DNA of 64,000 bases from Escherichia coli. GTDB lineage: Bacteria > Pseudomonadota > Gammaproteobacteria > Enterobacterales > Enterobacteriaceae. Made by a program: the position numbers and the translations under genes. Position 1 is the stretch's first letter; each line of letters begins with the position of its first letter. Positions 30,150 to 32,237 of this stretch are shown here, piece after piece. The DNA is taken from NCBI RefSeq assembly GCF_016026235.1, contig NZ_CP065613.1; one strand, given 5' to 3'. The notes under the pieces were generated by a model. That model saw only the letters and a program-made list of their open reading frames with translations, was not told where the DNA came from and did not search any database.

Positions 30150-32237
30150 GGCAGTATGACTTTCCGTGAGACAGATGCTGGCCAACGTGGGATATTTAAC
30201 GCGGGTTAACATCGTTGTCAGAGCCGCATGGGTGAGCTGTTGCTACACCCCGGTATTTCCACCACGGAGGCCAGCATGAACAACAATAACACATTGTACG
30301 TCGGGTTAGATGTTCACAAAGAATCGATTACTGTCGCTTATGCTATCAATTCAGAACCTGTTGAACTGATGGGTAAAATTGGCACATCACCTACTGATAT
30401 TCAGAATCTTTGTAAACGTCTCAGGTCAAAGTCATCGCAGGTCAGTATCGTTTATGAAGCGGGGCCCTGTGGTTATGGACTTTATCGTCGGCTGGTGAAA
30501 TCCGGTTTTGACTGCATGGTCTGCGCCCCCTCACTTATCCCGAAAAAACCGGGGGAGCGGGTTAAAACCGATCGCCGTGATGCCATCAGACTTGTGCGTT
30601 CACTGCGTGCAGGAGATCTTTCTGCTGTCTACGTACCCGGCATTGAAGATGAGGCATTCCGGGATTTGGCCCGGGCATGGGCATCTGCCCGCGATGATTT
30701 ACGGCATGCAAGGCAACGTCTGAAATCGTTTCTTCTGGTTCATGGGGTCCATTATGTCGGGCGAGCAGATTGGGGCCCTGCACACCGACGCTGGCTCAGC
30801 AAATACTCATTCGAAAGTCCCTGGCGACAATTAGCTTTTGACGAACACCGTCGTACAATAGAAGACCGGCAGGCACAATGTGAACGGCTGGAATCCGCCC
30901 TGAAGGAGGCCGTTACCGAATGGAGGCTGTATCCGGTAGTAGAGGCGCTGCAAGCCATGCGAGGGATTCAGTTTATTACTGCGGTTGGATTAATTTCTGA
31001 ACTGGGTGATCTGACCCGTTTTGAACATCCACGACAACTGATGTCATGGTTTGGTATCACGCCATCAGAATATTCATCGGGTGGAAGCAGACATCAGGGC
31101 AGCATTACCAAAGCCGGAAACAGCTATGCCAGAAAGCTATTGGTCGAGGCAGCGTGGAGTTACCGTCATCCGGCACGCATCAGTCCGGCAATACAAAAAA
31201 GGCAGGAAAATTTACCCCGCCCCGTCATTGACAGAGCATGGGATGCTCAACTCAGGCTTTGTAAGAGGTATCGAAAACTTCAGGCCAAAGGAAAGAATGT
31301 CAATATTACAATTGTTGCTGTTGCACGTGAGCTGGCGGGTTTTATCTGGGATATGGGCCGAATAGCAATGTCTGTCGCACAACAACCACAATGTCACAAA
31401 TAAAAAATGAGAATAACCAGTTCCCTGAAGGCGACGTAGCCCGGTACAAGAGTAACCCACGTTAGCGCTTGGCGACGGCGGAACAAAGCTGATTCGCGAC
31501 GTAAGAAAGTGGCAGGCTCATATGACGGACCTCTGTAATGCGGTATCCAACCCGCGAATATCAGCGTGATTCACCGTCGGATTTACTGCTACGTCGCCCT
31601 CAGGGAATTAAACCTAAAAAGAAAATCGTCAAAATTAGAGATTCCGGTTTGACACGGAAAGTCATATCAGCATTACCAAAGCCGGAAACAGCTATGCCAG
31701 AAAGCTATTGGTCGAGGCAGCGTGGAGTTACCGTCATCCGGCACGCATCAGTCCGGCAATACAAAAAAGGCAGGAAAATTTACCCCGCCCCGTCATTGAC
31801 AGAGCATGGGATGCTCAACTCAGGCTTTGTAAGAGGTATCGAAAACTTCAGGCCAAAGGAAAGAATGTCAATATTACAATTGTTGCTGTTGCACGTGAGC
31901 TGGCGGGTTTTATCTGGGATATGGGCCGAATAGCAATGTCTGTCGCACAACAACCACAATGTCACAAATAAAAAATGAGAATAACCAGTTCCCTGAAGGC
32001 GACGTAGCCCGGTACAAGAGTAACCCACGTTAGCGCTTGGCGACGGCGGAACAAAGCTGATTCGCGACGTAAGAAAGTGGCAGGCTCATATGACGGACCT
32101 CTGTAATGCGGTATCCAACCCGCGAATATCAGCGTGATTCACCGTCGGATTTACTGCTACGTCGCCCTCAGGGAATTAAACCTAAAAAGAAAATCGTCAA
32201 AATTAGAGATTCCGGTTTGACACGGAAAGTCATATCA
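30150..32237 (+). mobile_element. IS110-family insertion sequence (IS1111-like organisation), copy 1, carrying an internal 568-bp tandem duplication; boundaries +/-2 bp
   Basis: Begins ggcagtatgactttccgtg and ends cacggaaagtcatatca (14-bp subterminal inverted repeat tatgactttccgtg); second copy at 51752-53269 is 1518 bp; no target-site duplication. Confidence 0.8.
30228..31403 (+). CDS. IS110-family (DEDD) transposase, intact; alternative start at 30276 (MNNNNTLYVGLDVHK)
   Basis: 391-aa ORF; N-terminal YVGLDVHK motif typical of IS110-family RuvC-like domain; C-terminal region homologous to the IS110 fragment at 42606-42971. Confidence 0.8.
   Translation: MGELLLHPGISTTEASMNNNNTLYVGLDVHKESITVAYAINSEPVELMGKIGTSPTDIQNLCKRLRSKSSQVSIVYEAGPCGYGLYRRLVKSGFDCMVCAPSLIPKKPGERVKTDRRDAIRLVRSLRAGDLSAVYVPGIEDEAFRDLARAWASARDDLRHARQRLKSFLLVHGVHYVGRADWGPAHRRWLSKYSFESPWRQLAFDEHRRTIEDRQAQCERLESALKEAVTEWRLYPVVEALQAMRGIQFITAVGLISELGDLTRFEHPRQLMSWFGITPSEYSSGGSRHQGSITKAGNSYARKLLVEAAWSYRHPARISPAIQKRQENLPRPVIDRAWDAQLRLCKRYRKLQAKGKNVNITIVAVARELAGFIWDMGRIAMSVAQQPQCHK

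What the first reader, a model, noticed from the sequence alone, without database searches (positions are those of the whole stretch)
31404..31669. Conserved 266-bp non-coding 3' region of the IS110-family element as candidate guide-RNA locus
The intact element has only about 126 bp before the transposase start codon but 266 bp of non-coding sequence after the stop, up to the right end. It is present a second time at 31972-32237 and a third time in copy 2 (53004-53269). In IS1111-type members the targeting ncRNA is reported downstream of the transposase; this region is the obvious candidate.
Basis: inference. Interest (0 to 1): 0.5.

Follow-up and report, generated by a model that had tools for sequence, protein, structure and literature searches.

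The report
Guide (bridge) RNA gene of ISSso6
The non-coding tail of this jumping gene (ISSso6) encodes a folded guide RNA whose loops spell out the DNA site where the element inserts; this mechanism is already published for the family, and a guide RNA in this end of this very element was already predicted.

Summary
Three identical copies of the 266-nt tail exist.

The element is ISSso6, an IS110-family element of the IS1111 group. Window 31418-31610 (+) folds into a conserved RNA: 98.5% of cells are paired across 47 relatives and 10 pairs show compensatory changes.

An internal loop carries two guide segments:
- 31461-31471 (GUUAGCGCUUG) is complementary to the top strand of AAG|CGCTAAC.
- 31499-31505 (ACGUAAG) has the same sequence as the left flank plus the AG core.

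Thirteen independent ISSso6 insertion sites give the consensus GTAAG|CGYNAAC. In about 30 Burkholderiaceae relatives the same loop positions change together with their own flanks (0 of 10,000 permutations reached the observed match). A second, multiloop domain holds AAUAUCAG, which matches the right-end terminus, and UUACUG, which is complementary to the left end. These donor guides could not be tested by covariation.

Bridge RNAs and seekRNAs of IS1111-type elements were published in 2024, and Durrant et al. list ISSso6 with a bridge RNA in its right end.

Side findings:
- The natural target is the terminal repeat of IS66-family elements.
- The 3' end has repeatedly been partly duplicated in tandem.
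- One relative is programmed to insert into this RNA gene.

The parts
30151..31670 (+). ISSso6 copy 1 (1520 bp), inserted in speC antisense to it; no target-site duplication
   Evidence: RefSeq annotation of identical copies reads 'IS110-like element ISSso6 family transposase'. The empty speC site was reconstructed. The ends were read.
30149..30150 (+). Left copy of the AG core (last two bases of the left target); the right copy is 31669-31670
   Evidence: All 12 ISSso6 left flanks end in AG, and relatives with a correctly located left end do too; right ends finish in CAG, or CAA in some relatives.
30155..30168 (+). Left subterminal inverted repeat TATGACTTTCCGTG, 4 nt in from the end
   Evidence: It pairs with 31653-31666. 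The central bases change in concert at both ends in relatives: TTTCC, TCCCC, TTTGC, TTCGC, TTCAC.
30276..31403 (+). Transposase/recombinase gene, 375 aa
   Evidence: Pfam PF01548 DEDD_Tnp_IS110 and PF02371 Transposase_20. NCBIfam NF033542 'IS110 family RNA-guided transposase', 273.9 bits against a cut-off of 140. A GITPSEYSSG motif is read from the translation.
31418..31610 (+). Structured core of the predicted bridge RNA / long seekRNA (about 193 nt), closed by a 22-bp stem P1 (31418-31440 with 31588-31610)
   Evidence: Fold; consensus fold. Pair counts: 98.5% of cells paired, 10 pairs with compensatory change, 0 of 500 shuffles as high, slid controls at most 41% paired. Coordinates.
31450..31519 (+). 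Target-binding domain: stems P3 (31450-53/31516-19) and P4 (31457-60/31509-12), an internal loop, and inner hairpin P5 (31472-31497)
   Evidence: P4 shows a GC-to-AU double change in ISSso6 and L002. The P5b pairs (alignment columns 74/87 and 75/86) have 10 and 17 double changes.
31461..31471 (+). Right target guide (RTG), GUUAGCGCUUG, on the 5' side of the internal loop. [quoted passage not shown]
   Evidence: It is the only match with at most 2 mismatches to the consensus-derived 10-mer on either strand of the element. Match to the right flank in relatives is 4.17 of 6 against 1.88 +/- 0.22 permuted, 0 of 10,000.
31499..31505 (+). Left target guide (LTG), ACGUAAG, on the 3' side of the same loop. 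It has the same sense as the left target plus the AG core, so it would pair with the bottom strand.
   Evidence: ISSso6 sites have G at -5 in 11 of 12 and TAAG in 12 of 12. Match to the left flank in relatives is 2.94 of 5 against 1.67 +/- 0.17 permuted, 0 of 10,000.
31520..31524 (+). Variable patch AUAUG between P3 and P2; role unexplained
   Evidence: Hypervariable in alignment A1. No consistent partner was found in the RNA, the flanks or the ends.
31556..31566 (+). Candidate left donor guide (LDG), GAAUAUCAGCG, in the multiloop. AUAUCAG equals the last 7 nt of the right end including the core. The next base or bases equal the first base or bases of the right target.
   Evidence: Apart from the right end itself, this is the only match with at most 1 mismatch to CATATCAG in the element. 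Column 164 is complementary to RTG column 63 in 41 of 47 sequences. There is no natural variation of the right-end terminus, so covariation could not be tested.
31582..31588 (+). Candidate right donor guide (RDG), UUUACUG, complementary to left-end bases CAGTA (30152-30156). Tentative.
   Evidence: TTACTGC occurs at 31583, and also at 30976 inside the coding sequence. The guide and the left end are both nearly invariant in relatives, so this is untested.
31649..31654 (+). TTGACA in the right end. In a circular form it would lie 17 nt upstream of CAGTAT in the left end, a possible junction promoter.
   Evidence: TTGAC is conserved in the right ends of nearly all relatives. Spacing was read from the sequence. 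The inference rests on analogy with ISEc11 and was not tested.
31653..31666 (+). Right subterminal inverted repeat CACGGAAAGTCATA
31671..32238 (+). Tandem partial duplicate of the last 568 bp (= 31103-31670). It carries a second intact RNA gene (31986-32178). The right end ...ATCAG is joined to an internal site GGGCAG|CATTACC.
   Evidence: A contiguous copy of this junction is not present in the 5,426 complete E. coli genomes.
51753..53270 (+). ISSso6 copy 2 (1518 bp). The transposase gene has two 1-bp deletions and the RNA gene is intact (53018-53210). It is inserted 5 bp inside the left terminal repeat of an IS66-family element.
55784..55797 (-). Unoccupied cognate-type target: the right terminal repeat of the IS66-family element, GTAAGCGTCAACGG
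   Evidence: The sequence is the same as the occupied sites L084, L086, L090 and L093.

Best explanation
Window 31418-31610 (+ strand), and its two identical copies, is the gene for the bridge RNA (also called the long seekRNA) of ISSso6.

**Expression (inferred).** The RNA is probably made as the 3' part of the transposase transcript and then trimmed.

**Architecture (shown by sequence comparison).** A 22-bp stem encloses two domains.
- Domain 1 is an internal loop. [quoted passage not shown] - Domain 2 is a multiloop. [quoted passage not shown] The element is thereby inserted without a target duplication.

**Target.** The natural target spelled by the guides is the first 12 or so bases of the terminal inverted repeat of IS66-family elements (GTAAG|CGYNAAC). 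The speC site (TATAAG|CGCTATG) is a near-cognate site.
For: **Identity and family**
- The element is ISSso6, with DEDD and Tnp domains and the NCBIfam model 'IS110 family RNA-guided transposase'.
- It has a 14-bp subterminal inverted repeat, a short left end and long right end, and no target duplication.

**RNA structure**
- Fold z-score is -4.9.
- Across 47 relatives, 98.5% of cells are paired, 10 pairs show compensatory change, 65 cells changed on both sides, and 0 of 500 shuffles reached these values. Slid controls pair at most 41%.
- Frequent G-U pairs in P1, P3 and P7 fit only the + strand.

**Target guides**
- The hypervariable patches of the alignment are exactly the two sides of one internal loop.
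- They track each relative's own flanks (table; permutation tests 0 of 10,000 for both guides).
- Thirteen independent ISSso6 sites give GTAAG|CGYNAAC. Position +3 is C or T, as expected opposite an RNA G.
- The consensus-derived 10-mer has a single match in the whole element, on the + strand, in the loop.
- The guide order (top-strand match 5' of bottom-strand match) is the one reported for IS1111-type seekRNAs. [quoted passage not shown]

**Donor guides**
- A 7-nt identity to the right end and a 5-6-nt complement to the left end both lie in unpaired multiloop segments. Durrant et al. describe multiloop donor guides for many IS1111 orthologues.
- An unrelated family member, element X in L006, likewise has an internal ATAGAAG equal to its own right end, CATAGAAG. 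It also has a target loop of the same architecture with a 9-nt match to its target.

**Published prediction**
- ISSso6 is listed with 'Detected Bridge RNA End = RE' and group IS1111.
Against: - There are no expression data, and no sigma-70-like promoter lies upstream of the RNA in the integrated copy. No intrinsic terminator follows it.
- The donor guides rest on short identities with no covariation, because the ends and guides are nearly invariant. L016 has an LDG (CCATAGAAG) that does not match its own right end.
- Several relatives match their flanks poorly, scoring 1-3 of 6: L003, L024, L030, L031, L040, L048 and L053. For the L024 clade this looks like a one-column alignment shift; the rest may be off-target or rearranged copies.
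- The variable patch 31520-31524 is unexplained.
- Activity of the ISSso6 recombinase has not been shown anywhere, to my knowledge.
Confidence: 0.9

Rival explanations
1. The conserved 3' region acts only as DNA. It would be an extended right-end binding platform for the transposase (subterminal repeats or accessory sites), with no RNA product. Its similarity to the flanks would reflect DNA-DNA or protein-DNA recognition.
For: - The right end does contain DNA-level signals: the 14-bp subterminal inverted repeat and a conserved TTGACA.
- No promoter was found directly upstream of the region.
- The DNA that encodes the LDG behaves as a recombination site in three loci.
Against: - Compensatory base-pair changes and abundant G-U pairs that work on one strand only are signatures of an RNA, not of a protein-binding site.
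- The two variable patches lie on opposite sides of an internal loop. [quoted passage not shown]
- The subterminal repeat lies outside the structured core.
Confidence: 0.04
2. The region is a structured 3' UTR that stabilises or terminates the transposase mRNA, or the template of an antisense regulator of transposase expression. It would have no role in site choice.
For: - The fold is strong on both strands: z = -4.9 on + and -4.6 on -.
- The region is most likely co-transcribed with the transposase gene (no promoter of its own).
Against: - The long stem is not followed by a U-tract.
- The antisense strand turns the conserved G-U pairs into A-C mismatches.
- A UTR role does not explain why loop bases change with the insertion site in about 30 relatives.
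- The only match to the target consensus is on the + strand transcript.
Confidence: 0.03
3. The region encodes a small protein.
For: Mechanical ORFs overlap it: 31538-31933 on + (131 aa) and 31212-31460 on - (82 aa).
Against: - The + strand ORF runs across the duplication junction and exists only because of the rearrangement.
- Stop-free stretches in the ~200-nt core of the 47 relatives are 34-67 codons, and the alignment has indels that are not multiples of three.
- The conservation pattern is that of paired stems.
Confidence: 0.01

Closest known systems
seekRNA of IS1111-family elements ISEc11, ISPa11, ISKpn4 and ISPst6 (Siddiquee et al., Nat Commun 2024, PMC11187229)
   Same: - The RNA is encoded in the long non-coding region downstream of the transposase gene.
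- The element has subterminal inverted repeats and inserts without target duplication.
[quoted passage not shown]
- Close relatives are naturally reprogrammed (ISEc11 versus ISXne4), as seen here across Burkholderiaceae relatives.
- The target domain here (about 70 nt) is similar in size to the 82-96-nt 'peak' seekRNA. The whole structure (about 193 nt) resembles the ~150-nt long form.
   Different: - The ISSso6 transposase is 375 aa, against 330-350 aa for the tight IS1111 cluster. It is only about 20-24% identical to the other ISfinder family transposases in that paper's identity matrix (the columns shown there were not identified).
- RNA production, transposase binding and requirement for transposition are shown for those elements and not for ISSso6.
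IS621 bridge RNA (Durrant et al. 2024, PMC11208160; Hiraizumi et al. 2024, PMC11208158)
   Same: - The logic is bispecific. A target-binding loop and a donor-binding region each pair with the bottom strand on the left and the top strand on the right, and each includes a 2-nt core.
- The recombinase has DEDD (RuvC-like) and Tnp domains.
- ISSso6 is listed in that study's Supplementary Table 5 with a bridge RNA detected in the right end.
   Different: - The RNA lies in the right end, downstream of the gene, not in the left end.
- The order of the target guides is reversed (RTG 5', LTG 3').
- The core is AG, not CT.
- The donor guides sit in a multiloop rather than a simple internal loop.
- The RTG extends across the core to pair with position -3 of its own target, where IS621 has a handshake guide for the donor.
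- The base after the LDG tracks position +1 of the right target. That position is not described as a handshake guide in IS621.
IS4321 / IS5075 (IS1111 family; Partridge & Hall 2003, cited)
   Same: An IS1111-type element whose specific target is the terminal inverted repeat of another mobile element, inserting at a fixed position and orientation.
   Different: Those elements target the 38-bp repeats of Tn21-family transposons. ISSso6 targets the terminal repeat of IS66-family elements, after base 5 of GTAAG|CG....
ISPpu9 and its ssr9 module (Pares-Guillen et al., NAR 2025, PMC12288879)
   Same: An IS110-family element with an RNA gene downstream of the transposase gene. It gives rise to partial modules containing only the RNA part.
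   Different: Ssr9 was reported not to be required for transposition, and its modules arise from alternative circles. Here the partial copies are tandem 3'-end duplications, and the RNA carries clear target guides.

Membership tests
IS110 family, IS1111 group insertion sequence | Transposase with an N-terminal DEDD (RuvC-like) domain and a C-terminal Tnp domain (PF01548 + PF02371) | tested here: met
   PF01548 (residues 9-153, E = 6.7e-11) and PF02371 (223-297, E = 1.6e-23). NCBIfam NF033542 scores 273.9 bits against a cut-off of 140.
IS110 family, IS1111 group insertion sequence | Conserved G-(L)-x-P-x4-S/T-G motif in the C-terminal domain | tested here: met
   GITPSEYSSG is read in the translation. 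The motif definition comes from Siddiquee et al..
IS110 family, IS1111 group insertion sequence | Subterminal inverted repeats of 7-17 bp with short terminal extensions | tested here: met
   14 bp, TATGACTTTCCGTG / CACGGAAAGTCATA, lying 4 nt from each end. The central bases co-vary between the two ends in relatives.
IS110 family, IS1111 group insertion sequence | The longer non-coding region is downstream of the transposase gene | tested here: met
   125 bp upstream against 267 bp downstream.
IS110 family, IS1111 group insertion sequence | Site- and orientation-specific insertion without target-site duplication | tested here: met
   Empty speC site. Thirteen sites share GTAAG|CGYNAAC in one orientation.
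IS110 family, IS1111 group insertion sequence | A circular intermediate whose end junction forms a promoter | tested here: inconclusive
   TTGACA in the right end, a 17-nt spacer and CAGTAT in the left end would form at a junction (sequence; TTGAC conserved). The -10 element is weak (3 of 6). No circle can be observed with these tools.
Bridge RNA / seekRNA | A conserved structured non-coding RNA encoded in the long non-coding end | tested here: met
   98.5% of cells paired, 10 compensatory pairs, 0 of 500 shuffles as high.
Bridge RNA / seekRNA | [quoted passage not shown] | tested here: met
   Both permutation tests gave 0 of 10,000.
Bridge RNA / seekRNA | IS1111-type order: the top-strand match lies 5' of the bottom-strand match | tested here: met
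   RTG 31461-31471 precedes LTG 31499-31505.
Bridge RNA / seekRNA | Donor-binding segments that pair with the element's own joined ends | tested here: inconclusive
   AUAUCAG equals the right end plus core, and UUACUG is complementary to the left-end CAGTA. The ends are invariant in relatives, so there is no covariation. An analogous self-match exists in the unrelated element X. L016 is a mismatch.
Bridge RNA / seekRNA | The RNA is produced, binds the recombinase and is required for circle formation and transposition | not testable with these tools
   Shown for ISEc11, ISPa11, ISKpn4 and IS621 in the literature, not for ISSso6.
Bridge RNA / seekRNA | Detected by the published covariance models for IS110/IS1111 bridge RNAs | not tested
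   The models are not available here and Rfam 15 has no such family. The published table lists ISSso6 as 'RE'.

The most novel reading that the evidence does not exclude
**Proposed reading.** In this clade the guide RNA gene is itself a hotspot for the element's own chemistry.

**Observations that fit it**
- The DNA that encodes the left donor guide is by necessity a copy of the right end plus the core.
- It is the breakpoint of tandem 3'-end duplications in E. coli FDAARGOS_943 and in Paraburkholderia domus.
- It is also the programmed target of a different IS110-family element, element X in L006.
- The base after the LDG tracks position +1 of the right target in 41 of 47 relatives.

**What it could mean.** There may be a handshake on the bottom strand, or recognition of the integrated right junction, that is used for excision or for one-ended transfer. 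Neither is described for IS621. Such events would generate RNA-only modules and tandem guide genes.
Probability: 0.2. Interest if true: 0.5.

Novelty: already known. Interest (0 to 1): 0.25.

Why it matters
**The finding as given.** It adds little for the field. RNA-guided target choice by IS110/IS1111 elements was established in 2024, and ISSso6 was already scored as carrying a bridge RNA in its right end.

**What this analysis adds**
- An explicit map of the guides of an enterobacterial IS1111-type element.
- Its target code, GTAAG|CGYNAAC, which is the terminal repeat of IS66-family elements.
- A set of about 45 naturally reprogrammed relatives, which could serve as a design table for an AG-core system.

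**Practical uses**
- It explains why ISSso6 sits where it does in Shigella and EIEC genomes, including the speC disruption here.
- It predicts unoccupied targets such as 55784-55797.
- The recurrent 3' partial duplications, and the element that targets the guide gene, are small leads on side reactions of these recombinases.

Tried and rejected
**Searches that found nothing**
- Rfam 15 at gathering threshold on the whole window, and at E up to 10 on 30000-32400, gave no family in the region.
- The sigma-70 promoter scan found none upstream of the RNA, and nothing terminator-like on the + strand after it.
- The window's duplication junction has no contiguous copy in the complete E. coli genomes; all hits were two separate pieces.

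**Structural ideas considered**
- I first considered an alternative pairing, GACGG (columns 123-127) with CCGTC (173-177), for the second domain. I dropped it because column 123 varies against an invariant partner. The 37/124 U-A to C-G covariation (22 versus 21 sequences) instead supports P2.
- Patch 31520-31524 (AUAUGAC in ISSso6) looks complementary to the right end GTCATAT. The match is not kept in relatives whose ends are identical, so I rejected it as a donor guide.
- ACCUCUGUAAU (31529-31539) matches neither end nor flank. It is probably scaffold.
- The first left-end base (G/T/A) correlates with the right flank, but with many exceptions. I judged this to be a lineage effect.

**My own coordinate error**
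- I initially placed the right end at 31668. It is 31670.

**Limits of the homologue search**
- A search for more distant homologues to test the donor guides listed only proteins at least 72% identical, so I did not pursue it.
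Full report
**What is there**

The window carries an insertion sequence at 30151-31670 on the + strand. It interrupts speC, whose two halves lie on the minus strand on either side. Identical copies in RefSeq E. coli genomes are annotated 'IS110-like element ISSso6 family transposase'. Matches occur in 125 of 5,426 complete genomes.

The 375-aa protein has the DEDD_Tnp_IS110 and Transposase_20 domains. It reaches 273.9 bits on NCBIfam NF033542, 'IS110 family RNA-guided transposase'.

Joining the flanks gives ...GAATATAAG|CGCTATGCG.... This is 100% identical over 118 nt in at least 3,523 E. coli genomes and matches in 5,414 of 5,426. The ends are therefore exact and no target duplication was made.

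The element has a 14-bp subterminal inverted repeat (30155-30168 and 31653-31666), 125 bp before the start codon and 267 bp after the stop. These are all marks of the IS1111 group.

**Checking the observation**

Two corrections apply.
- The right end is G31670, not 31669.
- The second copy is part of a 568-bp tandem duplication of the 3' end (31671-32238 = 31103-31670), not a separate insertion.

The third copy belongs to ISSso6 copy 2 (51753-53270). Its transposase gene has two 1-bp deletions, but its tail is intact.

**Is it a structured RNA?**

The tail folds at -88 kcal/mol, z = -4.9.

A scan of one genome per species returned 77 loci encoding relatives that are mostly 70-81% identical at the protein level, mainly in Paraburkholderia, Caballeronia and Cupriavidus. 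Positions 16-206 of the tail are 75-83% identical at the DNA level in most full-length matches. The elements as wholes are only 66-72% identical.

I aligned 47 distinct tails (alignment A1). The consensus fold has these elements:
- a 22-bp closing stem, P1;
- a first domain made of stems P2-P3-P4, an internal loop and hairpin P5;
- a second, multiloop domain with two small hairpins.

On a slightly refined structure:
- 98.5% of cells form standard pairs;
- 10 pairs show changes on both sides, in 65 cells;
- none of 500 shuffles reaches these values;
- sliding the partners by 1-3 columns drops pairing to 34-41%.

Many pairs are G-U, which would be A-C on the other strand. The RNA is therefore read from the + strand, the same strand as the transposase gene. 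In window coordinates the structured core is 31418-31610.

**Does it carry guides?**

The hypervariable columns of the alignment are the two sides of the internal loop between P4 and P5.

In ISSso6 the 5' side is GUUAGCGCUUG (31461-31471), the reverse complement of AAG|CGCTAAC. The 3' side contains ACGUAAG (31499-31505), which has the same sense as the left flank plus AG.

I collected 13 distinct ISSso6 insertion sites from the window, six metagenome contigs and ten E. coli records. They show:
- left flank: G at -5 in 11 of 12, and TAAG in 12 of 12;
- right flank: C at +1 in 12 of 13, G at +2 in 13 of 13, C or T at +3 in 12 of 13, A at +5 and at +6 in 10 of 13 each, and C at +7 in 8 of 13.

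The C-or-T preference at +3 is what an RNA G opposite that position would tolerate.

A 10-mer derived only from that consensus has one match with at most 2 mismatches in the whole element, on either strand. It lies in the loop at 31461.

Across relatives, each element's loop follows its own flanks (table). Examples:
- L067: GAAUGGACUAC with right flank TCCATT and left flank ...ACTAG.
- L020: GACCGCGUUUG with right flank CGCGGT.
- L003: LTG GGAACAAG with left flank ...GAACAAG.

Over 30 non-redundant guide/right-flank pairs, the six variable RTG bases match the reverse complement of the right flank at 4.17 positions on average. Permuted pairings give 1.88 +/- 0.22. Over 33 guide/left-flank pairs, the five LTG bases upstream of AG match at 2.94 against 1.67 +/- 0.17. 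In both cases 0 of 10,000 permutations reached the observed value, even though a few left ends were mis-located.

RTG column 66 and LTG column 102 both follow target position -3 (A or T). The two guides therefore overlap at and beyond the AG core.

**Donor side**

The multiloop has three unpaired stretches.
- GAAUAUCAGCG (31556-31566) contains AUAUCAG, which equals the last seven bases of the element including the core. Apart from the end itself, it is the only near-match to CATATCAG in the element.
- GAUUUACU(G) (31580-31588) contains UUACUG, complementary to CAGTA at bases 2-6 of the left end.
- ACCUCUGUAAU (31529-31539) is nearly invariant and matches nothing. I take it as scaffold.

The ends and these segments are almost invariant in the relatives, so covariation cannot test the assignment. 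I rate it plausible, not shown.

One supporting case came by accident. In L006 a different IS110-family element (X, 1,729 bp) ends in ...CATAGAAG and has an internal GGAUAGAAG in its own 3' tail. X also has an internal loop of the same architecture, whose 5' side GAUCACACU is a 9-nt complement of its target AG|TGTGATC.

One further regularity appeared. The base following AUAUCAG (column 164) is complementary to the RTG base that reads target position +1 (column 63) in 41 of 47 sequences. The donor guide is thus followed by a base that matches the right target.

In IS621, handshake guides sit next to the top-strand guides and read the left side of the other DNA. What I see here is a different position. 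It may stabilise the right-end/right-target joint in the product or in the integrated copy. This is inference only.

**How it most likely works**

By the criteria of the two 2024 studies, this is an IS1111-type bridge RNA or long seekRNA.
- As reported for IS1111-type elements, the top-strand match comes first in the RNA.
- Durrant et al. noted that the donor-binding bases of many IS1111 orthologues lie in a multiloop.

No promoter-like site precedes the RNA. The right end holds a conserved TTGACA that would lie 17 nt from CAGTAT of the left end in a circle. For ISEc11, the junction promoter is the only one seen and the RNA is thought to be processed from the long transcript. I infer the same here.

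The strand-exchange chemistry, the circle and the RNA itself are not shown for ISSso6.

**Comparison with what is known**

The idea is not new. Siddiquee et al. showed RNA guides in the 3' non-coding region of ISEc11, ISPa11, ISKpn4 and ISPst6. Durrant et al. predicted bridge RNAs in 93% of ISfinder IS1111 elements. Their Supplementary Table 5 lists ISSso6 with 'Detected Bridge RNA End = RE' and group IS1111.

Only six papers in the library mention ISSso6, and the five titles listed are not about its RNA. The guide map and target code given here are therefore incremental detail on a known member of a known kind.

**Things seen in passing**

*Natural target.* ISSso6 copy 2 sits five bases inside the left terminal repeat of an IS66-family element. 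That element has tnpA, tnpB and tnpC at 53351-55767 and an 8-bp duplication, CAAAATGG, at 51740-51747 and 55798-55805. Most other ISSso6 sites have the same right flank next to IS66-family genes. The natural target is therefore the IS66-family terminal repeat GTAAG|CG.... This recalls IS4321/IS5075 and the Tn21 repeats. The other repeat of the same IS66 copy (55784-55797, minus strand) is an empty cognate site.

*Tandem 3' duplications.* Tandem partial duplications of the 3' end recur, and each time the exact right end ...ATCAG is joined just after an internal AG:
- the window: GGGCAG|CATTACC, 568 bp;
- pINV of strain VL40: CGTGAG|CTGGCGG, 339 bp;
- FDAARGOS_943: 106 bp, at the LDG-coding ATATCAG itself;
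- Paraburkholderia domus L042: 108 bp, likewise at the LDG-coding ATATCAG.

These look like recombinase-made products. Two routes are possible: nested insertion followed by homologous deletion, or exchange between the right junction and a pseudo-site. They leave two guide genes in tandem.

*An element aimed at the guide gene.* Element X in L006 is programmed to insert into that same LDG-coding segment of a relative.

Noticed in passing
window 51740-55805 (IS66-family element with ISSso6 copy 2 inside its left repeat); empty repeat at 55784-55797 (-): ISSso6 copy 2 is inserted after base 5 of the terminal inverted repeat (GTAAG|CG...) of an IS66-family element. That element has tnpA/tnpB/tnpC at 53351-55767 and an 8-bp duplication, CAAAATGG. 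Most other ISSso6 sites in E. coli have the same right flank beside IS66-family genes. IS66-family terminal repeats therefore appear to be the natural target, and the other repeat of this copy is unoccupied.
   Followed up: partly
window 31671-32238; L085 1819-2157; L084 1814-1924; L042 1554-1668: Tandem partial duplications of the 3' end recur. In each, the exact right end ...ATCAG is joined just after an internal AG. In two cases the internal site is the ATATCAG that encodes the donor guide. These are probably side products of the recombinase, and they duplicate all or part of the guide RNA gene. The window's junction is not present in complete E. coli genomes.
   Followed up: partly
L006 299-3576 (Paraburkholderia polaris), excluding the nested element at 1293-2841: A different IS110-family element (X, 1,729 bp; ends ATCCTATGAGC...GCTCATAGAAG) is inserted exactly after ...GATGTCAG in the guide RNA gene of an ISSso6 relative. 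Its own loop, GAUCACACU, is a 9-nt complement of that site. It is thus an insertion sequence programmed to target another element's guide gene. X is itself interrupted by a further ISSso6 relative.
   Followed up: partly
alignment A1 columns 63 and 164 (window 31467 and 31565): The base after the donor guide AUAUCAG co-varies with the target guide base that reads right-target position +1. The two are complementary in 41 of 47 relatives. This handshake-like position is not the one described for IS621.
   Followed up: partly
window 31520-31524: A hypervariable patch (AUAUG in ISSso6) lies between stems P3 and P2. I found no consistent partner for it in the RNA, the flanks or the element ends.
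   Followed up: partly
L016 (NCR at 2675-2879): This relative's donor-guide position reads CCAUAGAAG, the end type of element X, while its own right end is the usual ...ATATCAG. It may be a recombinant or decayed copy.
   Followed up: no
L013, L017, L023, and the second right end in L006 (3679): One subtype (subterminal repeat TTTGCG, RTG AUGGUAUU) is always followed by TACCAGCG-AACNGCGCAGCTGATGA. In L023 the left flank is the inverted form of that sequence. This suggests a palindromic, REP-like target.
   Followed up: no
window 29891-30133 and 32168-34174 (-): speC (ornithine decarboxylase) is split by the ISSso6 insertion. The site TATAAG|CGCTATG is only a near match to the element's consensus target.
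   Followed up: partly
window 60411-60484 (+), 21335-21405 (-), 35325-35397 (+): Rfam hits elsewhere in the window: Esr41 sRNA (108.6 bits), naRNA4 (60.9 bits) and a tRNA.
   Followed up: no
window 43012-43388 and 55203-55579: A 377-nt inverted repeat, 93% complementary. The second arm lies inside the IS66-family tnpC, so this is probably a second, diverged IS66-family copy.
   Followed up: no
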